Below, piece by piece: positions 3,782 to 13,032 of a DNA stretch of 64,000 nucleotides (position 1 is its first letter; each line of letters opens with the position of its first letter). A program made the translations under genes and the position numbers. The notes beneath the pieces are model-generated. The model saw only the letters and a list, made by a program, of their open reading frames with translations. It did not search any database and was not told where the DNA came from. The DNA comes from Candidatus Wolframiiraptor sinensis (lineage in GTDB: Archaea > Thermoproteota > Nitrososphaeria_A > Caldarchaeales > Wolframiiraptoraceae): NCBI GenBank assembly GCA_023261815.1, contig JALNKA010000001.1, positions 1 through 64,000 of the forward strand. Direction: 5' to 3'.

Positions 3782-4150
3782 TTAAAATGCTTTTTCTCGC
3801 GCTATCTTCTCGAGCATCTCCATTATTACTCTTCTGGCGGCATTCTCATCCCTCATCAGGAGATCATAGAACTCGTCAGGCGTCAGATCCTCAGAGCCGC
3901 TGAGGACGATAAGCCTGCCGCATATTATCTTGAAGGTCACCATGGCTCCATTCTCGCCGAAAAAGGCGGCTAATGCTTTGTAAAAGTCCTTGGGCCTTTT
4001 AAGGAATGCCGCGAGCGGATCCTCGCCCAATGACCTTCTAAGATGATAGCTCAGGGCCGTGAAGCAGCTTCTTCCCAGAATCGACTCGAAAATCGCCCTG
4101 ATGATTCCCCGAACATCACTCGCTTCCCATGACGCCCCGCCATCCCGCAT
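3782..4150 (-). CDS. Small helical hypothetical protein (resembles TACK NitrOD5/DUF3227-like output domains)
   Basis: ATG4150; IFESILG..ALSYHL..RPKDFYKALAAFFGENGA pattern; the upstream ORF extension is AT-rich promoter DNA. Confidence 0.5.
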   Translation of the reverse strand: MRDGGASWEASDVRGIIRAIFESILGRSCFTALSYHLRRSLGEDPLAAFLKRPKDFYKALAAFFGENGAMVTFKIICGRLIVLSGSEDLTPDEFYDLLMRDENAARRVIMEMLEKIAREKAF

Positions 4151-4297: not shown

Positions 4298-4310
4298 CAA
4301 AGTTTATATT
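4298..4310 (+). promoter_or_regulatory. BRE/TATA promoter of trp operon
   Basis: caaagTTTATATT; TATA ends about 23 nt before ATG4333, consistent with a leaderless start. Confidence 0.65.
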
Positions 4311-4332
4311 TGTGCGTTATGGCATATCTTGC

Positions 4333-4371
4333 ATGAACGGTGGCTGTCTTTGGCTCGGAATCCCATGCTGA
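4333..4371 (+). CDS. uORF MNGGCLWLGIPC overlapping the trpE 5' end (putative Trp-sensing leader / +1 frameshift cassette)
   Basis: ATG AAC GGT GGC TGT CTT TGG CTC GGA ATC CCA TGC TGA read directly; the +1 frame at CTT-TGG is the TrpE frame. Confidence 0.55.
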   Translation: MNGGCLWLGIPC

Positions 4372-5746
4372 GAGGCGGTTTAAGCTCATAAGGCTCGATC
4401 TGGAGCTTAGCCCCCTCCAAGTTTTCGGGGCCATAAAAGGAGCCTGGCGGGATGCCTTCTTCTTGGAGTCACTAACCGGCCCCAGAAAGCTCGCAGAATA
4501 CAGCTTCATAGGCTTTGATCCAAGGCTGACAATCGAGTGCTATGACGGGTTCTCGAGAGTCTATGAAGGCGGGTCCATAGTCCATGAGGAGGATGGTGAT
4601 CCCCTGGATCTTCTGAGCAGCCTGGCTCGGCCGATAGCGGGCGCATCATTATCGCCCAGGCTCATTGGCGGCCTAGTCGGCTATGTCTCCTATGAGGCCT
4701 CCTACCTCTGGGAGGATATTCAGGTACGTGAGAAGCCGGGCAACGGCTTTCCATTCATGAAGTTCGGCTTATTTGATGATGCGCTGATCTACGATCACAG
4801 GAGGAGGATCTACTACTACTCGTGCGTGGGTAATGATCGGCTGAGTGAGGTCAAGAGGGTTTTGAGGGATGTCGGGCCCCAGCTGGCCGACCGCGGCCCC
4901 AAGTACACCTGCCCGAGAAGCAACATGAGCATGCGCGAGTTCATGGACATCGTTGAGACCGGAAAAGAGTATATCGGCCGCGGCGACATCTTCCAAGTAG
5001 TCCTCTCGAGGAGGCTCGAGTTCGAGTTAGCGGGAGATCTACTTCCATTCTATCTCAGGCTTAGGGATCTTAATCCATCGCCCTACATGTACTATCTCAG
5101 GCTTGGTGATGATGAGCTTGTTGGAGCGAGCCCCGAGATGCTGATTAGGGTTGAGGGCGGAAGGATGGCGACATTCCCAATAGCTGGGACCAGGCCGAGG
5201 ATGGGCGACGCGTTGCTCGAGGAGGAGTCGGATCGCGAGCTCCTCTCCGATGAGAAGGAGAGAGCCGAGCATGTGATGCTCGTAGATCTCGCAAGGAATG
5301 ATCTCGCGAAGGTCGCCGAGCCGGGATCTGTCGAGGTGAAGGACTTTATGATTTTGGTAAAGTATAGCCACGTGAAGCACATAGTCTCGAGGGTTGAGGC
5401 TAGGCTGAGAAGCGGCGCGACGATGTATGACGCGTTTAAGGCGGTCTTCCCAGCGGGCACGGTCTCAGGGGCGCCGAAGCCCAGGGCCATGGAGATAATT
5501 GAAGAGCTTGAGCCAGTTCGGAGAGGCCCTTACGCTGGAGCTCTCGGATACTTCTCTATGAACGGTTGCTGCGACTTCGCAATCACGATAAGAACGCTGA
5601 TCAGGAGGTCGCGCACCGCCTACATACAGGCCGGCGCAGGGATAGTCTGGGACTCGATCCCTGAGCGCGAGTGGAATGAGACTCAGCACAAGATGATGGC
5701 TCTCGTGAAAGCTCTCGAGGAGGCTGGTGAGATATGCGAGTTCTAA
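4340..5746 (+). CDS. trpE: Anthranilate synthase component I
   Basis: FFLES, GDIFQVVLSRR, NPSPYMYY, GASPE, PIAGTRPR, EHVMLVDLARND, FPAGTVSGAPK; true start uncertain. Confidence 0.97.
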   Translation: MAVFGSESHAERRFKLIRLDLELSPLQVFGAIKGAWRDAFFLESLTGPRKLAEYSFIGFDPRLTIECYDGFSRVYEGGSIVHEEDGDPLDLLSSLARPIAGASLSPRLIGGLVGYVSYEASYLWEDIQVREKPGNGFPFMKFGLFDDALIYDHRRRIYYYSCVGNDRLSEVKRVLRDVGPQLADRGPKYTCPRSNMSMREFMDIVETGKEYIGRGDIFQVVLSRRLEFELAGDLLPFYLRLRDLNPSPYMYYLRLGDDELVGASPEMLIRVEGGRMATFPIAGTRPRMGDALLEEESDRELLSDEKERAEHVMLVDLARNDLAKVAEPGSVEVKDFMILVKYSHVKHIVSRVEARLRSGATMYDAFKAVFPAGTVSGAPKPRAMEIIEELEPVRRGPYAGALGYFSMNGCCDFAITIRTLIRRSRTAYIQAGAGIVWDSIPEREWNETQHKMMALVKALEEAGEICEF

Positions 5747-6318
5747 TACTCGACAACTTCGACTCATTTGTCTACATTCTCGCGGACTACGTGGGCAAGC
5801 TGGGAGCCAAGGCCATAGTGGCGCGAAGCAACAGAATCTCCCTAGATGAGGTGGAGGAGATCGATCCCCACAAAATCATAATCTCGCCCGGCCCAGGCCA
5901 CCCATCGGAGAAGCAGTACACCGGGGTCTGCGAGGATGTTATCAGGAGGTTCTCGAGGGATACGCCGATACTGGGGGTCTGCCTAGGTCATCAGCTGATA
6001 GTTCACGCCTTCGGAGGCCGGGTCATAAGAGCTAAGAGGATAGTTCACGGAAAGCCGAGCAGGATAAGCCATGATGGAAGAGGCGTGTTCAGGGGGCTTG
6101 AGAACCCGCTCATAGCCGGAAGATATCACTCGCTCGTCGCCGAGGAGGAGAGCCTGCCGAGGTGCCTCGAGATATCCGCGAGATCGATTGAGGAGAACGA
6201 GATCATGGGCGTTAGGCATCGAGGCTTGCCGATCGCGGGCCTCCAATTCCACCCCGAATCCATCCTCACCGCCAGCGGCATCAAGATTCTCAGAAACTTC
6301 TTGGAGGGTGAGGTATGA
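5734..6318 (+). CDS. trpG: Anthranilate synthase component II (glutamine amidotransferase)
   Basis: DNFDSF, ISPGPG, GVCLGHQ, RYHSL, QFHPES. Confidence 0.97.
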   Translation: MRVLILDNFDSFVYILADYVGKLGAKAIVARSNRISLDEVEEIDPHKIIISPGPGHPSEKQYTGVCEDVIRRFSRDTPILGVCLGHQLIVHAFGGRVIRAKRIVHGKPSRISHDGRGVFRGLENPLIAGRYHSLVAEEESLPRCLEISARSIEENEIMGVRHRGLPIAGLQFHPESILTASGIKILRNFLEGEV

Positions 6319-7382
6319 GCATAATGGATGCGATAAAATTGCTCGTAGAGCATGGCAGGATCGAGCCGGATCTCGCGGCGAGGTGCATGGAGGAGCTGAT
6401 GAGGGGCGAGGCGACGCAGGCTCAGGCCGCTGCCTTCCTCACGGCTCTACGCATACGCGGCGAAGACCCGGCCGTGATAGCCGCCATGTCCAGCGTCATG
6501 AGGAGATTCGCGACGCCGATACGCGTGGATCCCGGGAAGAATAGGCTCATAGATACGTGCGGGACGGGCGGCGACGCGATCAAGACGATTAACGTTAGCA
6601 CGGCGTCGGGGCTCGTGGCCGCGGCGTCGGGAGGCCGGGTTGCCAAGCACGGCAATAGGTCGTTCACGGGGTACTGTGGCAGCGCCGACTTCCTCGAGGA
6701 GCTGGGTGTGAAGATAGACTTGGACCCGGACACGGTCTCGAGGTGCATCGAATCACTCGGCTTCGGCTTCATCTACGCCCCAAGATATCATCAATCCATG
6801 AAGAACGTTATGCCCGTGAGAAGGGAGATCGGGATAAGAACGATCTTCAATATACTCGGCCCCCTGACGAATCCAGCTCCGGTGAATGCTCAGGTTCTAG
6901 GAGTCTTCTCCCGCGAGTTCATGGGCCGCGTCGCGGAGGCTCTCGGGCTTCTCGGGAGGGAGGAGGCGGCGATAATCCATGGGATCGGCGGGCTGGACGA
7001 GGTATCAATATTCTCGGAGACCGAGGTTATCTGGATAAGGAATGGTGAGGCAGAGCCGATGATCATTAGGCCTGAGAGCTTTGGCCTCGAGAAAGCGAGG
7101 GTCGAGGAGGTGATCGTGAGTAGCAGGGAGGAGTGCGTCAAGAAGACGCTGGGCGCCCTCGCGGGAGCTCTCGGAAGATCTCATCCATTAACGAGGCTTC
7201 TCCTCGCGAACTCGTCATTGTCCCTAATGGTCGCGGGCTTAGCCGATGACCTAAAGGAGGGCGCGGAGCTGGCCTGGCGCGTGATAGAGTCGGGGAAACC
7301 GATCGAGCTATTGAGCAGGCTCGTGAAGATGACCGGCGGCGATGAGAGCAGATTCGAGTCATGGATGAGGGTGATAGAATGA
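6315..7382 (+). CDS. trpD: Anthranilate phosphoribosyltransferase
   Basis: DTCGTGGD, NVST, AKHGNRS, RTIFNILGPLTNP, GLDE. Confidence 0.98.
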   Translation: MSIMDAIKLLVEHGRIEPDLAARCMEELMRGEATQAQAAAFLTALRIRGEDPAVIAAMSSVMRRFATPIRVDPGKNRLIDTCGTGGDAIKTINVSTASGLVAAASGGRVAKHGNRSFTGYCGSADFLEELGVKIDLDPDTVSRCIESLGFGFIYAPRYHQSMKNVMPVRREIGIRTIFNILGPLTNPAPVNAQVLGVFSREFMGRVAEALGLLGREEAAIIHGIGGLDEVSIFSETEVIWIRNGEAEPMIIRPESFGLEKARVEEVIVSSREECVKKTLGALAGALGRSHPLTRLLLANSSLSLMVAGLADDLKEGAELAWRVIESGKPIELLSRLVKMTGGDESRFESWMRVIE

Positions 7383-8164
7383 ACTTCCTAGAGAAAGCAT
7401 GCCTCCAGGCGAGAAGAAGGATTTCCGAGGGATACTACAACTTAGATTTCTATGAGGCCCCGGCTAGCAGGCCGAGCATGCTAGAGGCCCTGAACAAGCC
7501 GGGGGTCTCGCTGATATGCGAGCTAAAGCTCCGATCACCCGCGATGGGGGTCATAAGGGATGCGCGGAACCCGTTAAACCTCATTGAGGAGATGGAGGCC
7601 GCTGGGGCTGACGCGATCTCGATCATAACCGATCCGGACAACTTCTCTGGGTCAATACATTACCTCGCGGAGGCCTCGAAGATCACGAGGCTTCCAACGC
7701 TGATGAAGGATTTCATAGTGTCCGATGTGCAGATAGAGGCGGCTCGCAGGGCCGGCGCATCCGCGATCCTCCTAATCTACCCAGCATTCTCGAGGGGCTA
7801 CGCACTGCTCGGGCTGAGAGAAGCGATAGACCTCGCCCACAGCATGGGGCTCGAAGTCATCCTCGAATCCTACGACATGGAGGATCTCAGGGCCTCGCTC
7901 AGCTATGACGCGGATCTCCTGGGCGTGAACTCCAGGAACCTAGATACGCTCGAGCTCAGCCTTGACCGCGCATATGAGTTGATCGCATCGCTCAGTGACC
8001 CCGATGAGCGGGTAATCTTGGAGAGCGGGATCAGCTCCGCATCCCAGATAAGGCGATTCGCAGAGTTGGGGGTGAATAAATTCCTGGTCGGCACATCGAT
8101 AATGGCCTCGAATAGCATAGCGTTGAAGATAAGGGAGCTCAAGGGGGCGTTGCGTAATGGTTAG
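7379..8164 (+). CDS. trpC: Indole-3-glycerol phosphate synthase
   Basis: ICELKLRSP, LMKDFIV, GVNSRNL, ESGI, LVGTSIM; ATGA overlap with trpD. Confidence 0.95.
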   Translation: MNFLEKACLQARRRISEGYYNLDFYEAPASRPSMLEALNKPGVSLICELKLRSPAMGVIRDARNPLNLIEEMEAAGADAISIITDPDNFSGSIHYLAEASKITRLPTLMKDFIVSDVQIEAARRAGASAILLIYPAFSRGYALLGLREAIDLAHSMGLEVILESYDMEDLRASLSYDADLLGVNSRNLDTLELSLDRAYELIASLSDPDERVILESGISSASQIRRFAELGVNKFLVGTSIMASNSIALKIRELKGALRNG

Positions 8165-8771
8165 AGTGAAGATATGCGGGATAACGCGGGAGGAAGATCT
8201 CGCTGCTGCAGCAGCCCACGGCGCTGATGCAATAGGGCTTGTAGTCGGCTTCCCGAGATCCCCGAGAAACCTCTCAATCGAGAGGGCGAGAGCGCTCAGG
8301 AGGATGGCGCCGCCATTCCTCGACGTCGTCCTAGTGGTTGATGGGGCGGATCGCGATATGCTCATCAGGGCGGTCCGCGAGATAAGGCCGGACGCGGTCC
8401 AAGTATACGGCGAAGTGAACCCGAATATGCTGAGGGACCTCGGCGCCGGGTGGATAATCAAGCCTGTCCGCGTGGAGCCTGGCATCGAGTTAGATTACGA
8501 CGGCTTTGACGCAATCCTCTTGGACAGTAGCATGGGCAGGGGGCTAATGCCGGACTGGAGGCTTTGCAGGGAGATGAGGGAAAGATCCAGGCTCCCAGTG
8601 ATTCTGGCTGGAGGCCTCAACCCCCAAAACGTTCTCGATGCGATCAGAATTGTCAAGCCTTACGGCGTTGATGTCTCGAGCGGCGTCGAGCTCTCACCCG
8701 GTATAAAGGACGCGCACATGATAAGAGAGTTCATTAGGAGGGTTAGGGAGGCGGAGCTGGATGAAGTATAA
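8157..8771 (+). CDS. trpF: Phosphoribosylanthranilate isomerase
   Basis: [27 protein letters not shown]. Confidence 0.97.
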
Positions 8772-9951
8772 TCTTCCGACTAGTGATGGGAGGTTCGGTA
8801 GGTTTGGCGGCCGATATGTGCCGGAGACGCTGATGGAGGCTCTGAGCGAGCTCGAGGAAAGCTACATCAAGCTAAAGAACGACCCGGATTTCAGGCGAGA
8901 GCTCGACTACATGCTGCGCGAATACGCCGGCAGGCCGACACCGCTCTACTACGCCGAGAACCTGACTAAAATTATCGGCGGCGCGAAGATTTACCTGAAG
9001 CGCGAGGACCTGCTGCACGGAGGAGCCCATAAGATAAACAACACGCTCGGCCAGGGGCTGCTGGCAAAGCGGATGGGGAAGAAGAGGGTGATAGCTGAGA
9101 CGGGAGCCGGTCAGCATGGCGTCGCGACGGCGATGGCCTGCGCGGTCCTAGGGCTGAAATGCGAGATCTACATGGGCGAGATAGACATGGAGAGGCAGAG
9201 GATGAACGTGCAGCGCATGAGGCTCCTCGGAGCCGAGGTCCACCCGGTATCATCGGGATCTAAGACACTGAAGGACGCGATAAATGAGGCGATAAGAGAT
9301 TGGGTGACGAACGTGGAGACGACATACTATCTCCTGGGATCGTGCGTGGGCCCGCACCCATATCCAATGATAGTCAGGGACTTCCAGTCAGTGATAGGCG
9401 CCGAGGCGAGAAGCCAGATCCTCGAGAAGGAGGGAAGGCTCCCGGATTACGTCGTGGCATGCGTCGGAGGCGGAAGCAACGCGATAGGAATCTTCCACCC
9501 ATTCATCGAGGATAAGGAGGTTAAGCTGATCGGCGTTGAGGCGGGCGGAGAGGGCACCGAGCTCGGAAAGCACTCGGCATCACTCGTGAGGGGTCTCGAG
9601 GGAGTCCTGCACGGCGCGCTAACATATGTGCTCCAAGATGAGGATGGGCAGATAGCTGGGACGCACAGCATAGCGGCCGGCCTAGATTACCCTGCGGTCG
9701 GGCCGGAGCACGCCTACCTGAAGGAGACGGGGAGAGCAGAGTATACCACTGTGACGGATGATGAAGCTCTCCAAGCATTCTTAACACTCTCGAGGACTGA
9801 GGGGATCCTGCCGGCCCTCGAATCAGCTCACGCCCTGGCATACGCCATCAAACTCGCCGAGAACCTCAGCAGAGATGAGATAATAATCGTGAACCTCTCG
9901 GGCAGGGGGGACAAGGATCTCGAGACCGTTCTGAGGAGGCTTGGAAGATGA
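8761..9951 (+). CDS. trpB: Tryptophan synthase beta chain (TrpB1 type)
   Basis: [48 protein letters not shown]. Confidence 0.99.
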
Positions 9952-10754
9952 ATGGGCTCGAGGAGAGGTTTAGGCGGGCGAGGAGGAGGGGCTGCTCCCT
10001 CTTCATACCATACATCACGGGCGGCTACCCGGACATGAAGTCCTGCAGAAGGATAATCGAGGCGATGATTCAAGCCGGAGCAGAGGTGATAGAGCTCGGG
10101 ATACCATTCTCGGACCCGATAGCGGATGGGGTCACGATCCAGGAATCCACGTTCAGGGCGCTTCAAGCTGGAGCAACCCCGAAGGGGGTTTTGGAGCTTG
10201 CAGGCGAGATCTCGGCCTCACACGACATCTCCATAGCCATCCTGACATATCTCAACCCTGTTTATCGCATGGGGTTGAGGAGGTTCATGGAGGAGGCTTC
10301 GAGACGCGGCGTGGATGGAATCATAATACCGGATCTGCCGCTTGAGGAGGCCGGCCCAGTAAAGAGGATCGCCATGGAATATGGCGTCTCGCTGATACTT
10401 CTCGCAGCGCCCACGACGAGCGACGAGAGGCTCGCGAGAATACTCGATGAGACCATGGGATTCGCCTACCTCGTATCGCTCACGGGAACCACGGGCGAGA
10501 GGGATGCTCTTCCGCCAACCGCGATCCAGCTGCTTCAGAGAAGCAAGAGGCTGAACCCCGTGAAGCCCGTGGCCGTAGGCTTCGGGGTCTCGAGGCCGAG
10601 TCAAGCGGTCGAGCTCGCAAGGCTCGGAGCAGATGGAGTGATAGCCGGAAGCAGGATAATCTCGGAGATAAGGAGGAGCATGGAGAATCCGGAGAAGGCT
10701 GTCGGGAGGCTCGTGAGGGAGTTCGTGAAAGCCCTCAGCAGCCCTGGCCAATAA
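9948..10754 (+). CDS. trpA: Tryptophan synthase alpha chain
   Basis: [32 protein letters not shown]. Confidence 0.98.
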
Positions 10755-10854: not shown

Positions 10855-11574
10855 GTGGCCCAAGCTCCGCATAATAGAGCTCCGGAAAAGCTTTGGAAGA
10901 TTTCCGAGGATAGGCGGAGTAGGCTCATAATCGCCCTCGATCTCCACGGCAGCCCGGATGACAAGCGATTACTCCTCGGAAGATGCTTAAGCCTACTCGA
11001 TGAGCTCCGCGATCTCATAGTCGGCGTGAAGATCGGGCTACCCCTAAGCGTCTCGATAGGCTTCGACGGCGTATCAGAGATCATAGAGCGATTCGGTGGG
11101 GAGCTCTACATGATCGCGGACTTCAAGCTCTCAGATATACCCGAGATAATCCAGGTAGCGCTCGAGGGCTTCGGGAGGATGGGGTTCGACGCGGCGATAG
11201 CCCACCTATTCCAGGGAGGGATCGGAGAAGTTAAGCGCGCGATAGACCTCTTCGGCGTCGTCGCCATGAGCCATCCACAGGCCCAGCTCCTTCAGCAAAG
11301 CTTCCATAGGCTATTGCATGAAGCGGAGGCGGCGGAGGTCGAAGGCGTAGTCATCGGCGCTACGAGGGGGGACCTAATTGCTGAGGCCAGGAGAGTTCTT
11401 CCTAGAAAGACTATCCTCTCGCCGGGGGTAATTGTTCAGGGAGCGAGCCCGGCTCATGCTCTCCGGATGGGAGGGGACTTCGAGATAGTCGGCAGGGCGA
11501 TAACGATGGCCGAGAACCCCATTGAGGCCGCTAGAATGATAGTGGAGGCTGAAAGAGATGTCCTACGCGCGTGA
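10855..11574 (+). CDS. pyrF: Orotidine 5'-phosphate decarboxylase
   Basis: LIIALD, VKIG, DFKLSDIP, SPGV..QG, IVGRAI. Confidence 0.93.
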   Translation: MAQAPHNRAPEKLWKISEDRRSRLIIALDLHGSPDDKRLLLGRCLSLLDELRDLIVGVKIGLPLSVSIGFDGVSEIIERFGGELYMIADFKLSDIPEIIQVALEGFGRMGFDAAIAHLFQGGIGEVKRAIDLFGVVAMSHPQAQLLQQSFHRLLHEAEAAEVEGVVIGATRGDLIAEARRVLPRKTILSPGVIVQGASPAHALRMGGDFEIVGRAITMAENPIEAARMIVEAERDVLRA

Positions 11575-12121
11575 GGTCGCGGAGATCCTCGGCAGAGTGG
11601 GCTGCGTGAAGATTGGAAAATTCATCCTCAGCTCGGGCCGCGAGAGCACGATCTACATAGACCTCAGAGCAGTTCCCTCTCACCCGAGGGAGTTCAGGGC
11701 TCTGGCTGAGCTATGCGCTCGGAGAATTAGTGAGTTGGACTTCGAGATTCTGGCCGGCATCGAGTCGAGCGGGATACCCCTAGCAACAGCCCTAACCCTG
11801 ATCATGGATAAGCCCATGGTATATGTTAGGAAGGAAGCGAAATCTCATGGAATGCGGAGGCTGATCGAGGGAGACTTCTCGCCTGGACTGAAGGCGCTCA
11901 TAGTAGATGACGTCGCGACGACGGGATCATCGCTCGAAAGAGCAGCCTCTGCTCTGAGATCTGAGGGCCTTGTAGTCGAGAGCGCATTCGTCATCGTTGA
12001 TCGCGAGGAGGGAGCGCGGGAGAGGCTGGAGCACCTCGGCATAAAACTGCTCTCCATGACAACCTTGAGCCAACTAACCTCAATGATGAGCGGCCTAAGG
12101 GAGGCTGGTGCCGGATGCTGA
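11558..12121 (+). CDS. pyrE: Orotate phosphoribosyltransferase
   Basis: FILSSGRES..YIDLR, RKEAKSHG, VDDVATTGSS. Confidence 0.97.
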   Translation: MSYAREVAEILGRVGCVKIGKFILSSGRESTIYIDLRAVPSHPREFRALAELCARRISELDFEILAGIESSGIPLATALTLIMDKPMVYVRKEAKSHGMRRLIEGDFSPGLKALIVDDVATTGSSLERAASALRSEGLVVESAFVIVDREEGARERLEHLGIKLLSMTTLSQLTSMMSGLREAGAGC

Positions 12122-13032
12122 GGGGAAGAGACATAATATCGGTGAATGAGCTGAGCAGGCAGGACTTCGAGCGGATATTCGATGCGGCTGATGAGATTCT
12201 CGAGGCGCCCGGGAAGTGGTCCTCCGTCCTCAGGGGCAAGATAATGGCGACGGCGTTCTTCGAGCCGAGCACGAGAACAAGGCTGAGCTTCCACACCGCC
12301 ATGCTAAGGCTTGGAGGAGAGGTGGTGGACCTTGGCGAAGTTGAGAAGAGCTCGATGGCTAAGGGCGAGAACCTCTCGGACACGATAAGAATGCTCGACT
12401 CATACTCTGACGTGATCGTGATGAGGCATAGGCTGGAGGGGGCGGCGAAGCTCGCGGCGGAGATCGCGGAGAAGCCGGTGATAAATGCCGGCGATGGGAG
12501 CAGAAATCACCCAACCCAGGCCATGATAGACCTCTACGCGATAAGAAGATTCCATGGGAGAATAGATGGATTGACGATAGGAGTTCTAGGAGACCTGAAG
12601 TACGGGAGGGCGACGAACTCATTCATAGCCGCCCTGGCGAAGTTCCGGGTGGAGAGGATCTACCTGATCTCGCCACCTCAGCTGAGGGTTAGGGATGATA
12701 CTCGCGAGCTGTTATCCGAGGCGGGCATAGAATTCAAGGAGGTCGAGAGGCTCGAGGACGTGATAGGGGAGCTCGACGTGCTATACGCGAGCAGGATCCA
12801 GAAGGAAAGATTCCCGGATCCAAGCGAATACGAACTGGTCAGGGGAAGCTATGTGATAACGGCCGAGACGCTCAAGGGAGCCAGGAGTAGCCTGACGATA
12901 CTCCACCCGCTTCCGAGAGTGGATGAGATAAGCTTCGAGGTGGACTCGACGCCGCACGCCAAGTACTTCGAGCAGGCGGCTCTCGGCGTTCCGGTGAGGA
13001 TGGCCCTGCTCAAGCTCATTCTGGTGGGGTGA
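12115..13032 (+). CDS. pyrB: Aspartate carbamoyltransferase catalytic subunit
   Basis: FFEPSTRTRLSF, HPTQ, GDLKYGR, HPLPR. Confidence 0.98.
   Translation: MLRGRDIISVNELSRQDFERIFDAADEILEAPGKWSSVLRGKIMATAFFEPSTRTRLSFHTAMLRLGGEVVDLGEVEKSSMAKGENLSDTIRMLDSYSDVIVMRHRLEGAAKLAAEIAEKPVINAGDGSRNHPTQAMIDLYAIRRFHGRIDGLTIGVLGDLKYGRATNSFIAALAKFRVERIYLISPPQLRVRDDTRELLSEAGIEFKEVERLEDVIGELDVLYASRIQKERFPDPSEYELVRGSYVITAETLKGARSSLTILHPLPRVDEISFEVDSTPHAKYFEQAALGVPVRMALLKLILVG

What the first reader, a model, noticed from the sequence alone, without database searches (positions are those of the whole stretch)
4333..4371. prfB-like +1 frameshift cassette on a Trp codon gating trpE
Seen in sequence: the ATG at the predicted leaderless start (about 23 nt after TTTATATT) opens MNGGCLWLGIPC*, not TrpE. 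Inside it is GGU GGC UGU CUU UGG C. A +1 slip of the P-site tRNA from CUU to UUU puts GGC in the A site, which is the TrpE frame (..ttt ggc tcg gaa..). Established: the bacterial prfB site is AGG GGG UAU CUU UGA C (SD-like element, 3-nt spacer, CUU-U slip, slow A-site codon). Here the slow codon would be UGG. Inference: TrpE (MNGGCL-GSESHAERRFK..) is made when Trp-tRNA is scarce, a hungry-codon switch I do not know from archaeal trp operons. The alternative GTG4340 start has no SD.
Basis: partly seen in the sequence, partly recalled or inferred. Interest (0 to 1): 0.92.

Follow-up and report, generated by a model that had tools for sequence, protein, structure and literature searches.

The report
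Tryptophan-codon frameshift switch before archaeal trpE
The first gene of the tryptophan operon in this hot-spring archaeon, and in most of its relatives, seems to be read only after the ribosome slips one base forward at a tryptophan codon, which would make that slip a built-in sensor of tryptophan supply.

Summary
ATG4333 opens a 12-codon ORF holding GGT GGC TGT CTT TGG C, and TrpE lies in the +1 frame.

It is neither chance nor a sequencing error. The same layout heads trpE in 74 of 103 Thermoproteota genomes examined: a start codon, 2-7 codons, then NTT TGG, with TrpE's frame starting at TTT GG.
- All 37 genomes of the window's own order have it.
- All 12 sampled genera of a Nitrosopumilaceae-like family have it.
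- 24 of 28 other mostly Bathyarchaeia-like genomes have it.
- Only 1 of 26 genomes from the remaining families has it.
- None of 72 bacterial or other archaeal trpE loci has it.

In 36 of the 74, the TrpE frame has no ATG, GTG or TTG before TTT. In 13 of them a TAG sits directly before TTT. Promoter or Shine-Dalgarno signals point at the out-of-frame ATG. A G-rich Shine-Dalgarno-like element lies 3-4 nt before the slip codon.

Best reading: a conserved programmed +1 frameshift, prfB-like but with the sense codon UGG in the A site, that makes TrpE when Trp-tRNA is scarce. The recoding is strongly supported by comparison. Dependence on tryptophan is inferred. Nine full-text literature searches found no prior report.

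The parts
4303..4310 (+). TATA box TTTATATT of the trp operon promoter
   Evidence: Read. A TATA-like 8-mer ending exactly 22 nt before the leader ATG is found in 19 loci: 9 of genera g1 and g2 of the window's family and 10 of the 12 sampled from family f5. That this spacing puts the transcript start on the A of ATG is recalled archaeal promoter geometry, not measured here.
4311..4332 (+). 22-nt spacer between the TATA box and ATG, holding a partly palindromic conserved box (consensus about GCAYTAATGCC in relatives). It is a candidate operator for a transcription factor.
   Evidence: Conserved in the promoter alignments of genus relatives. It is also present before the in-frame second trpE-like copy L021. 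The function is inferred only.
4333..4371 (+). Leader ORF in the 0 frame, MNGGCLWLGIPC*, starting at the predicted 5' end of a leaderless mRNA
   Evidence: An out-of-frame start codon precedes the shift site in 74 of 74 motif loci (ATG in 64, TTG in 9, GTG in 1). The part after TGG is not conserved: the 0-frame stop comes 0-45 codons later, median 5.
4334..4336 (+). TGA that closes the TrpE frame just upstream, overlapping the leader ATG
4339..4343 (+). GGTGG, an internal Shine-Dalgarno-like element 4 nt before the slip codon. It also creates the GTG (4340-4342) that gene callers take as the trpE start.
   Evidence: The 16S 3' end of this genome reads GGATCACCTCCT. Across 45 genera the consensus is RGKGR, with one G invariant in 45 of 45. 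The predicted duplex with the anti-SD averages -8.6 kcal/mol, against -2.3 for windows inside trpE. Public gene calls start at GTG, giving 468 aa.
4345..4347 (+). TGT, the codon that would sit in the E site at the shift. It follows a pyrimidine-purine-pyrimidine pattern.
   Evidence: Position weights over 45 genera: Y at 38 of 45, R at 37 of 45, Y at 37 of 45.
4348..4354 (+). Shift heptamer CTT TGG C. tRNA-Leu in the P site moves from CUU to UUU, and GGC (Gly) replaces UGG (Trp) in the A site.
   Evidence: NTT TGG has TrpE's frame on TTT GG in 74 of 103 genomes. The shift window is bounded by 13 loci with TAG directly before TTT in the TrpE frame and 3 loci with a 0-frame stop directly after TGG. 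tRNA-Leu(GAG) and tRNA-Trp(CCA) are both present.
4352..5746 (+). trpE (anthranilate synthase component I) as decoded after the shift
   Evidence: Pfam PF04715 and PF00425. NCBIfam TIGR01820 TrpE-arch covers residues 25-460 with 488 bits, below its 512 cut-off.
5734..10754 (+). trpG, trpD, trpC, trpF, trpB and trpA, each overlapping its neighbour by 4-22 nt. Together with trpE they form one trpEGDCFBA operon.
   Evidence: ORF coordinates. Pfam hits GATase, Glycos_transf_3, IGPS, PRAI, PALP and Trp_syntA.

Best explanation
The trp operon mRNA starts at or next to ATG4333. Ribosomes start there and read M-N-G-G-C-L. With CUU in the P site and the Trp codon UGG in the A site there are two outcomes.

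1. If charged tRNA-Trp is plentiful, UGG is read and the ribosome ends at TGA4369 after a useless 12-residue peptide.
2. If charged tRNA-Trp is scarce, the A site stays empty. The P-site tRNA-Leu(GAG) re-pairs one base forward on UUU, helped by pairing between the upstream GGUGG and the 3' end of 16S rRNA. GGC is then read as Gly and the ribosome continues into TrpE. The downstream genes, which overlap one another, probably follow by coupling.

The operon would thus be switched on at the level of the reading frame by lack of its own end product.

Shown by sequence comparison: the two-frame layout, the N UUU GG core, the SD-like element, and start signals that serve the out-of-frame ATG. All are conserved across the window's order and in Nitrosopumilaceae-like and Bathyarchaeia-like lineages.

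Inferred: that the shift happens on the ribosome, its efficiency, its dependence on Trp-tRNA, and coupling to trpGDCFBA.
For: 1. Layout in the window.

2. Conservation: 74 of 103 genomes, 45 of 72 genera and 19 of 29 families. This breaks down as 37 of 37 in the window's order, 12 of 12 sampled genera of family f5, 24 of 28 other genomes fetched, and 1 of 26 from the families. Six further named loci also have it: five Bathyarchaeia and one Nitrosopumilaceae.

3. The shift is obligatory in many. 36 of 74 have no ATG, GTG or TTG in the TrpE frame between the upstream stop and TTT. In 25 of those 36 the next in-frame start is more than 21 codons downstream, inside the conserved core, or absent from the stretch held. 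13 have TAG directly before TTT.

4. L005 loses the GTG through GGC GGT, a change that is synonymous in the ATG frame.

5. Start signals serve the out-of-frame start. There are two groups: TATA plus 22 nt to the ATG with no SD, or a 36-50 nt spacing with GGAG about 10 nt before the ATG.

6. Natural in-frame versions use the same ATG. L126 and L130 share promoter, SD and ATG, and differ by a net 4 nt.

7. The pattern fits P-site slippage. N varies (CTT 40, GTT 26, ATT 5, TTT 3) while UUU stays fixed.

8. The SD-like element, the 16S 3' end and tRNA-Leu(GAG) are present.

9. Controls: 0 of 72 other trpE loci have the layout, and no other convincing case was found in the genome.

10. It is not an assembly error.
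Against: - There is no direct evidence for a trans-frame protein, for the transcript start or for any response to tryptophan.
- The one RNA contig laid begins at 4573 and does not reach the site.
- In 38 of 74 loci, the window included, an in-frame GTG, ATG or TTG lies before TTT, so a frameshift is not strictly needed there.
- GUU and AUU in the P site (31 of 74) re-pair on UUU with a first-position mismatch.
- Nine loci depend on a TTG leader start that sits 4-5 nt from the predicted transcript start.
- No conserved downstream RNA structure was found.
- The anti-SD sequence was read only in the window's own genome.
- The duplex statistic treats related genera as independent.
- The genome's own spacing between TATA boxes and ATGs gave no peak and cannot confirm a leaderless start.
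- Because the motif was defined by TTTGG, its invariance among motif loci is partly circular. The non-circular point is that every locus lacking an in-frame start has it.
Confidence: 0.68

Rival explanations
1. A real programmed +1 frameshift that is constitutive. It sets a fixed, low output of TrpE, or has some other role, and does not respond to tryptophan supply.
For: All the comparative evidence for recoding fits this reading equally well. No tool result bears on regulation.
Against: The A-site codon is the Trp codon in every locus that needs the shift, and the device sits at the head of the Trp operon. The base after UGG varies (C 41, A 18, G 8, T 7), and the residues after the shift are not conserved. 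UGG is therefore kept for what it is in the 0 frame. No comparable device was found before any other gene of this genome.
Confidence: 0.17
2. No frameshift takes place. TrpE starts in its own frame (GTG4340 here), and the short out-of-frame ORF is an overlapping upstream ORF that competes with or tunes that start.
For: The window and 37 other loci have a canonical start in the TrpE frame before TTT, mostly GTG three codons upstream. Public gene calls use it.
Against: 36 of 74 loci have no such start, and 13 have TAG directly before TTT. The GTG is a by-product of GGT GGN or GGT GAN, and L005 loses it through a change that is synonymous in the leader frame. Promoter spacing and SD position serve the leader ATG. 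In L126 that same ATG is directly in frame with TrpE. A ribosome paused on UGG would cover the GTG, which gives the wrong regulatory sign.
Confidence: 0.08
3. The frame is corrected in the RNA, by polymerase slippage or editing at the T run, and not on the ribosome.
For: A +1 change at TTT in the transcript would give the same protein frame. The RNA contig laid does not cover the site, so this was not tested.
Against: The T run is only three bases, four where the P-site codon is TTT. From recall, known transcriptional slippage sites are much longer homopolymers. This reading does not explain the conserved SD-like element, the Trp codon or the YRY codon.
Confidence: 0.04
4. Assembly or sequencing error, or a decaying pseudogene.
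For: None was found. Two relatives (G003, G040) have only partial trpE matches and may hold remnants.
Against: The sequence is identical in contigs of independent runs. The exact protein is seen on 24 contigs. The layout recurs in 74 genomes, single-contig assemblies among them. The full trpEGDCFBA operon is intact.
Confidence: 0.01

Closest known systems
Bacterial prfB (release factor 2) programmed +1 frameshift
   Same: A short initiating frame and a long +1 frame. A CTTT slip, in which P-site tRNA-Leu moves from CUU to UUU. [quoted passage not shown] A slowly filled A site. Feedback from the supply of the factor that reads the A-site codon. The motif definition comes from passages of PMC12421855.
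   Different: The A-site codon is the sense codon UGG, not the stop UGA. The sensed molecule would be charged tRNA-Trp, not the gene's own protein product. The P-site codon may be CUU, GUU, AUU or UUU. The site lies at codons 3-8 rather than codon 26. The organisms are archaea, and many of the mRNAs are apparently leaderless. The gene is unrelated.
Yeast Ty1 +1 frameshift at CUU AGG C, and starvation-induced 'hungry codon' frameshifting in E. coli (both recalled; hungry-codon frameshifting is mentioned in PMC5009743)
   Same: A P-site CUU slip opposite a sense codon whose tRNA is limiting. The heptamer has the same form.
   Different: In Ty1 the limiting tRNA is permanently rare and the shift is not a metabolic switch. 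Hungry-codon shifts in E. coli are described as errors under starvation, not as a conserved control of a biosynthetic operon. The 2016 review says their natural use is unclear.
Bacterial trp leader-peptide attenuation (trpL; recalled)
   Same: A short leader ORF with a Trp codon ahead of trpE uses the translating ribosome to gauge charged tRNA-Trp.
   Different: The output there is a choice between terminator and antiterminator hairpins in the transcript. Here no conserved RNA structure follows the site, the leader overlaps trpE, and the output would be the reading frame itself.
Antizyme +1 frameshift sensing polyamines (passages of PMC5009743; details recalled)
   Same: A metabolic feedback loop closed by the efficiency of a +1 frameshift.
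   Different: It is eukaryotic, has a stop codon in the A site, is stimulated by excess end product and makes an inhibitor. Here lack of end product would make the biosynthetic enzyme.
Known archaeal recoding: -1 frameshift or slippage in magnesium chelatase, a Sulfolobus candidate, and haloarchaeal virus tail genes (PMC5009743 and PMC3711429)
   Same: Recoding in archaea.
   Different: Those are -1 or poly-A events, or viral. Neither paper mentions trpE, anthranilate synthase or a Trp-codon shift (0 occurrences of 'anthranilate' and 'trpE' in both).

Membership tests
prfB-type programmed +1 ribosomal frameshift site | A short initiating ORF, with the main ORF in the +1 frame overlapping it | tested here: met
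   Conserved in 74 of 103 genomes.
prfB-type programmed +1 ribosomal frameshift site | CTTT slippery run: a P-site codon whose tRNA can re-pair one base forward | tested here: met
   CTT T at 4348-4351. tRNA-Leu(GAG) is present in the genome. Across loci the run is NTTT, with N = C 40, G 26, A 5, T 3.
prfB-type programmed +1 ribosomal frameshift site | An in-frame stop codon (TGA) in the A site, read by the gene's own product | tested here: not met
   The A-site codon is TGG, a sense codon, in all 74 loci, and the gene encodes TrpE, not a release factor. It is therefore not a member of the prfB family, although it appears to work like one.
prfB-type programmed +1 ribosomal frameshift site | An internal Shine-Dalgarno-like element about 3 nt upstream that pairs with the 16S 3' end | tested here: met
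   GGTGG at 4339-4343, 4 nt before CTT. The 16S 3' end reads GGATCACCTCCT. Consensus RGKGR across 45 genera. The duplex averages -8.6 against -2.3 kcal/mol. Pairing during elongation was not tested.
prfB-type programmed +1 ribosomal frameshift site | A trans-frame protein product demonstrated | not testable with these tools
   No proteomic or ribosome-profiling data were available. The RNA contig does not reach the site.
Hungry-codon (aminoacyl-tRNA-limited) +1 frameshift | A sense codon in the A site whose decoding becomes slow when its charged tRNA is scarce | not testable with these tools
   The codon is UGG. One intron-bearing tRNA-Trp(CCA) gene was found. Kinetics and starvation response cannot be computed.
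Leader-peptide transcription attenuation (trpL type) | A leader ORF with codons for the regulating amino acid ahead of the first structural gene | tested here: met
   A 12-codon leader with one Trp codon.
Leader-peptide transcription attenuation (trpL type) | Alternative terminator and antiterminator hairpins after the leader | tested here: not met
   The 50 nt after the site show no excess folding in 45 genera (mean z 0.08; 1 of 45 below -2). The leader overlaps trpE itself.
Anthranilate synthase component I (TrpE) | Anth_synt_I_N plus chorismate-binding domains, and operon context | tested here: met
   PF04715 at 80 bits and PF00425 at 310 bits, both above cut-off. TIGR01820 scores 488 bits, below its 512 cut-off. 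Followed by trpGDCFBA.

The most novel reading that the evidence does not exclude
An ancient 'frameshift attenuator', conserved across Caldarchaeales, Nitrosopumilaceae-like and Bathyarchaeia-like archaea. The trp operon is gated by a +1 ribosomal slip at N UUU GG whose rate is set by the supply of charged tRNA-Trp. It would be the first natural amino-acid-sensing programmed frameshift controlling a biosynthetic operon. It would also be the first widely conserved chromosomal +1 frameshift in Archaea. It has been hidden because gene callers pick an incidental GTG or a truncated start.
Probability: 0.6. Interest if true: 0.95.

Novelty: new variant of a known kind. Interest (0 to 1): 0.9.

Why it matters
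- **Regulation.** How archaea match tryptophan synthesis to supply at the level of translation is largely unknown, and bacterial-style attenuation has not been found in them. This would be a compact answer: about 20 nt that turn the ribosome into a sensor of charged tRNA-Trp.
- **Recoding.** It would extend regulatory frameshifting from release factor and polyamine sensing to amino-acid sensing. It would show that the prfB design (SD-like element, CUU-U slip, slow A site) arose or persisted in Archaea with a sense codon.
- **Testability.** The device occurs in ammonia-oxidising archaea, some of which are in culture.
- **Annotation.** trpE starts are probably wrong in many archaeal genomes. Here public gene calls start a 468-aa protein at the incidental GTG.
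- **Engineering.** The element is small enough to serve as an amino-acid-responsive switch.

Tried and rejected
**Downstream RNA structure as a stimulator.** I folded the 50 nt after the site in one locus from each of 45 genera, against shuffles. Mean z was 0.08, so nothing was found.

**Leaderless geometry from the genome itself.** A histogram of spacing from TATA-like 8-mers to ATGs that open long ORFs gave only 130 8-mers and no peak, so it is uninformative.

**Similar devices before other genes of this genome.**
- The scan specific to TGG gave 3 hits. One is trpE, one has an ordinary in-frame ATG, and one is a doubtful 178-codon frame.
- A scan for any NTTT slip after ATG gave 13 hits, none convincing. 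Examples are an argininosuccinate-synthase-like ORF with its own GTG and an SD-plus-ATG gene.

**RNA evidence.** Only Logan contigs were on offer. The one metatranscriptome contig laid starts at 4573, so neither the transcript start nor RNA-level slippage could be examined.

**Class-level search.** It returned the same 76 genomes as the order.

**Literature.** Nine full-text searches found no report of a frameshift in trpE or anthranilate synthase, or of a Trp-codon frameshift switch in archaea. I read only search listings and abstract beginnings, plus passages found by term in three papers:
- PMC5009743, of which only the first 300,000 characters are held;
- PMC3711429;
- PMC12421855.

Supplements were closed. 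The cluster tables of PMC3711429 could hold a relevant cluster that I could not see. Subscription journals are not in the library.

**Rows left out of the 103-genome table:**
- L009 and L016, which are cut at the 5' end;
- L021, L188 and L189, which are second trpE-like copies;
- L187, a partial match;
- L041 and L042, which show the same 5' sequences as L002 and L005;
- the named loci L043-L120, which I treated separately.

The unpublished genome G421 was not fetched.

Full report
**What is in the window.**
Positions 4333-4371 read ATG AAC GGT GGC TGT CTT TGG CTC GGA ATC CCA TGC TGA. The long ORF that follows is anthranilate synthase component I. It has Pfam Anth_synt_I_N and Chorismate_bind, and its best NCBIfam model is TIGR01820 TrpE-arch, covering residues 25-460 with 488 bits, just under the 512 cut-off.

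- TrpE lies in the +1 frame relative to ATG4333.
- That frame is closed by TGA 4334-4336, and its first canonical start is GTG 4340.
- TTTATATT sits at 4303-4310, exactly 22 nt before the ATG.
- trpE is followed by trpG, trpD, trpC, trpF, trpB and trpA, each overlapping the next by 4-22 nt.

**Not an error.**
Logan contigs from three hot-spring runs cover 4333-4371 without any inserted or missing base. One run may be the source of this DNA; the other two come from other studies. One of them differs by point changes at 4298, 4324 and 4330 and by an inserted T after 4286, so it is a different strain that keeps the site intact. The GTG-started 468-aa protein is on record letter for letter on 24 contigs. 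NCBI names it an anthranilate synthase component I family protein, which shows that gene callers take the GTG.

**Relatives in the same order.**
The closest named genome is Candidatus Wolframiiraptor allenii, at 82% protein identity (lineage). Of the 76 genomes of the order, 37 have trpE (the class holds the same 76). I read the 5' end in 37 genomes, and all 37 have NTT TGG with TrpE's frame beginning on TTT GG. The variants are telling.

- One species of the same genus (L005) has ATG AAC GGC GGT TAT CTT TGG. This removes the GTG but keeps Gly-Gly in the ATG frame, and leaves no canonical start in the TrpE frame.
- One genus (g3, 7 genomes) has only ATG TGY CTT TGG, again with no TrpE-frame start.
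- The genera g6, g14 and g15 have ..TTA GTT TGG C, which puts a TAG in the TrpE frame directly before TTT.
- Three genomes have a 0-frame stop directly after TGG.

Together these bound the place where the frame must change to the heptamer itself.

**The wider phylum.**
In an even sample of 401 Thermoproteota genomes, 230 have trpE (this tally includes the unpublished G421, which I did not fetch).

I fetched 40 5' ends, mostly one per genus (17 families, 36 genera). I also took the best trpE locus from each of 26 genomes of eleven families that mostly gave weaker matches (29 loci from 27 genomes; L187-L189 set aside).

| Group | Genomes with the layout |
|---|---|
| Window's order (Caldarchaeales) | 37 of 37 |
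| Family f5 (12 genera sampled) | 12 of 12 |
| Other genomes | 24 of 28 |
| Families | 1 of 26 |
| Whole table | 74 of 103 (45 of 72 genera, 19 of 29 families) |

By best hit to named loci, f5 corresponds to Nitrosopumilaceae and f14 and f31 to Bathyarchaeia. Among the named loci, five of five Bathyarchaeia and one Nitrosopumilaceae locus have the layout.

**Controls.**
The other 72 loci are bacteria, methanogens, a Thermoplasmata, a Nitrosopumilus sp. and one locus labelled Micrarchaeota. All have ordinary in-frame starts. Two have an in-frame TTTGG near the start, but without an out-of-frame leader. That gives 0 of 72.

In the window's own 1.18-Mb genome, a scan for a start, 1-6 codons, NTTTGG, a +1 ORF of at least 150 codons and a short 0 frame gave three hits. 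trpE was the only convincing one.

**The shift is obligatory in about half.**
- In 36 of the 74 loci there is no ATG, GTG or TTG in the TrpE frame between the nearest upstream stop and TTT.
- In 25 of those 36, the next canonical in-frame start is more than 21 codons downstream or absent from the stretch held. That is beyond the point where the TrpE family profile begins.
- In the other 38 loci the in-frame start is mostly a GTG three codons before TTT. It is created by the leader's GGT GGN or GGT GAN codons.

**Start signals serve the leader.**
There are two groups.
- In genera g1 and g2 of the window's family and in f5, a TATA-like 8-mer ends 21-23 nt before the leader ATG (exactly 22 nt in 19 loci), and in most there is no SD. 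By recalled archaeal promoter geometry this puts the transcript start on the A of ATG, making the mRNA leaderless.
- In the Bathyarchaeia-like families the spacing is 36-50 nt, and GGAG lies about 10 nt before the same ATG.

A natural experiment agrees. L126 and L130 share promoter, SD and ATG. In L126 a net 4-nt difference after the ATG puts TrpE directly in frame with it. Other lineages that lost the device also have ordinary starts (L133, L140, L144, L051).

**Anatomy of the site.**
Aligned on the P-site codon, one locus per genus (45), the consensus is ATG RGK GRT YRY NTT TGG.
- The three Ts and two Gs are invariant by definition of the motif.
- Independently of that definition, one G of the upstream element is invariant in 45 of 45, and its neighbours are R in 45 of 45, K in 44 of 45, G in 35 of 45 and R in 44 of 45.
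- The codon before the slip codon is pyrimidine-purine-pyrimidine (38, 37 and 37 of 45).
- The predicted duplex between the 14 nt before the slip codon and the 3' end of this genome's 16S rRNA averages -8.6 kcal/mol. For 225 windows inside trpE it averages -2.3. The Mann-Whitney p is 5e-24, but related genera are not independent, so this overstates the case.
- The P-site codon is CTT in 40, GTT in 26, ATT in 5 and TTT in 3 loci. N varies and UUU is fixed. This is what P-site slippage predicts, because all NUU-reading tRNAs with G34 and A35 can keep two of three pairs on UUU.
- The genome encodes tRNA-Leu(GAG) and one intron-bearing tRNA-Trp(CCA).
- The start lies 4 codons before the slip codon in 39 loci, 5 in 22, 2 in 7, 6 in 5 and 7 in 1.
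- The 0-frame stop follows TGG after 0-45 codons, median 5, and the base after TGG varies.
- No conserved structure follows the site.

**Mechanism, and what is shown.**
Comparison shows that TrpE's frame is entered from a short out-of-frame leader at N UUU GG, and that this has been kept through deep divergence. That the frame change is a ribosomal +1 slip of the P-site tRNA, helped by the SD-like element, is inferred from the likeness to prfB. The prfB motif is AGGGGG, 3 nt, CTTT, TGA, then C, taken from passages of PMC12421855.

That the switch senses tryptophan is inferred from the codon. In every locus that needs the shift, the codon that must stay unread is the Trp codon, at the head of the Trp operon. 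Neither the following base nor the following residues are conserved. The sign of the regulation also makes sense: scarcity of charged tRNA-Trp would turn the operon on.

**Rivals.**
- A constitutive frameshift cannot be excluded by computation.
- In-frame GTG initiation with a regulatory upstream ORF fails for the 36 loci without a start, and for L005 within the genus.
- Correction at the RNA level is unlikely with a three-base T run, but it was not tested, because the only RNA contig starts at 4573.
- Error or pseudogene is excluded.

**Comparison with what is known.**
The site works like prfB but is not a member of that family. The defining in-frame stop read by the gene's own product is replaced by a sense codon, and the gene is unrelated.

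It resembles the Ty1 heptamer and hungry-codon shifts (recalled). It shares the sensing logic, but not the output, of bacterial trp attenuation.

The 2016 review of frameshifting lists archaeal cases (magnesium chelatase, a Sulfolobus candidate, haloarchaeal viruses). It says the natural use of hungry-codon shifting is unclear. 'Anthranilate' and 'trpE' occur 0 times in the part held. The 2013 genome-wide screen likewise has 0 occurrences.

Nine full-text searches found no report. The library lacks most subscription journals, and supplements were closed, so an earlier report cannot be ruled out.

**Limits.**
All evidence is comparative. The leader start was chosen by rule: the nearest ATG in the 0 frame within 12 codons, else the nearest GTG or TTG. 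The nine TTG-started leaders are the weakest cases. The anti-SD sequence was read only in this genome.

Noticed in passing
window 3782-4150 (- strand): A small ORF of about 120 aa is transcribed divergently from the trp promoter. It has no Pfam or NCBIfam match. It is conserved next to trpE in six other genomes of the same genus (42-72% identity). It could be a regulator of the operon; divergent regulators beside archaeal trp operons are recalled, not tested.
   Followed up: partly
window 4311-4332; same place in L002-L008, L020-L022: A partly palindromic box (about GCAYTAATGCC) lies between the TATA box and the leader ATG and is conserved in the genus. It is also present before the in-frame second trpE-like copy L021. 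It looks like an operator, which would add transcription-level control to the frameshift.
   Followed up: no
L043-L046, L048 and L123-L147 (Bathyarchaeia-like trpE promoters): An inverted repeat of the form TGTACA-N5-TGTACA, or half of it, abuts the upstream side of the TATA box in many of these promoters. It is also present in L048 and L126, which have no frameshift.
   Followed up: no
L051 (Nitrosopumilus sp.), L126, L133, L140, L144: These lineages sit inside motif-bearing groups but have lost the device. L051 keeps a TATA-plus-22 ATG that opens only five codons, and has a second ATG 4 nt later that is in frame with TrpE. L126 uses the ancestral ATG directly in frame. They could serve as natural controls for experiments.
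   Followed up: partly
L020 (G003) and L019 (G040): Only the first roughly 50 residues (G003), or residues 14-260 with an internal TAA (G040), of TrpE match in these genomes, yet the leader and shift site are intact. These may be decaying copies or assembly breaks.
   Followed up: no
L021 (G013, contig C41): This is a second, divergent trpE-like gene (43% identity) in one species of the genus. It has the same TATA-plus-22 geometry and the same box, but an ordinary in-frame ATG. It may be a paralogue such as an aminodeoxychorismate synthase under the same promoter logic.
   Followed up: no
window 10855-13032: Directly after trpA lie genes for orotidine-5'-phosphate decarboxylase, a phosphoribosyltransferase and aspartate/ornithine carbamoyltransferase (pyrimidine synthesis), on the same strand.
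   Followed up: no
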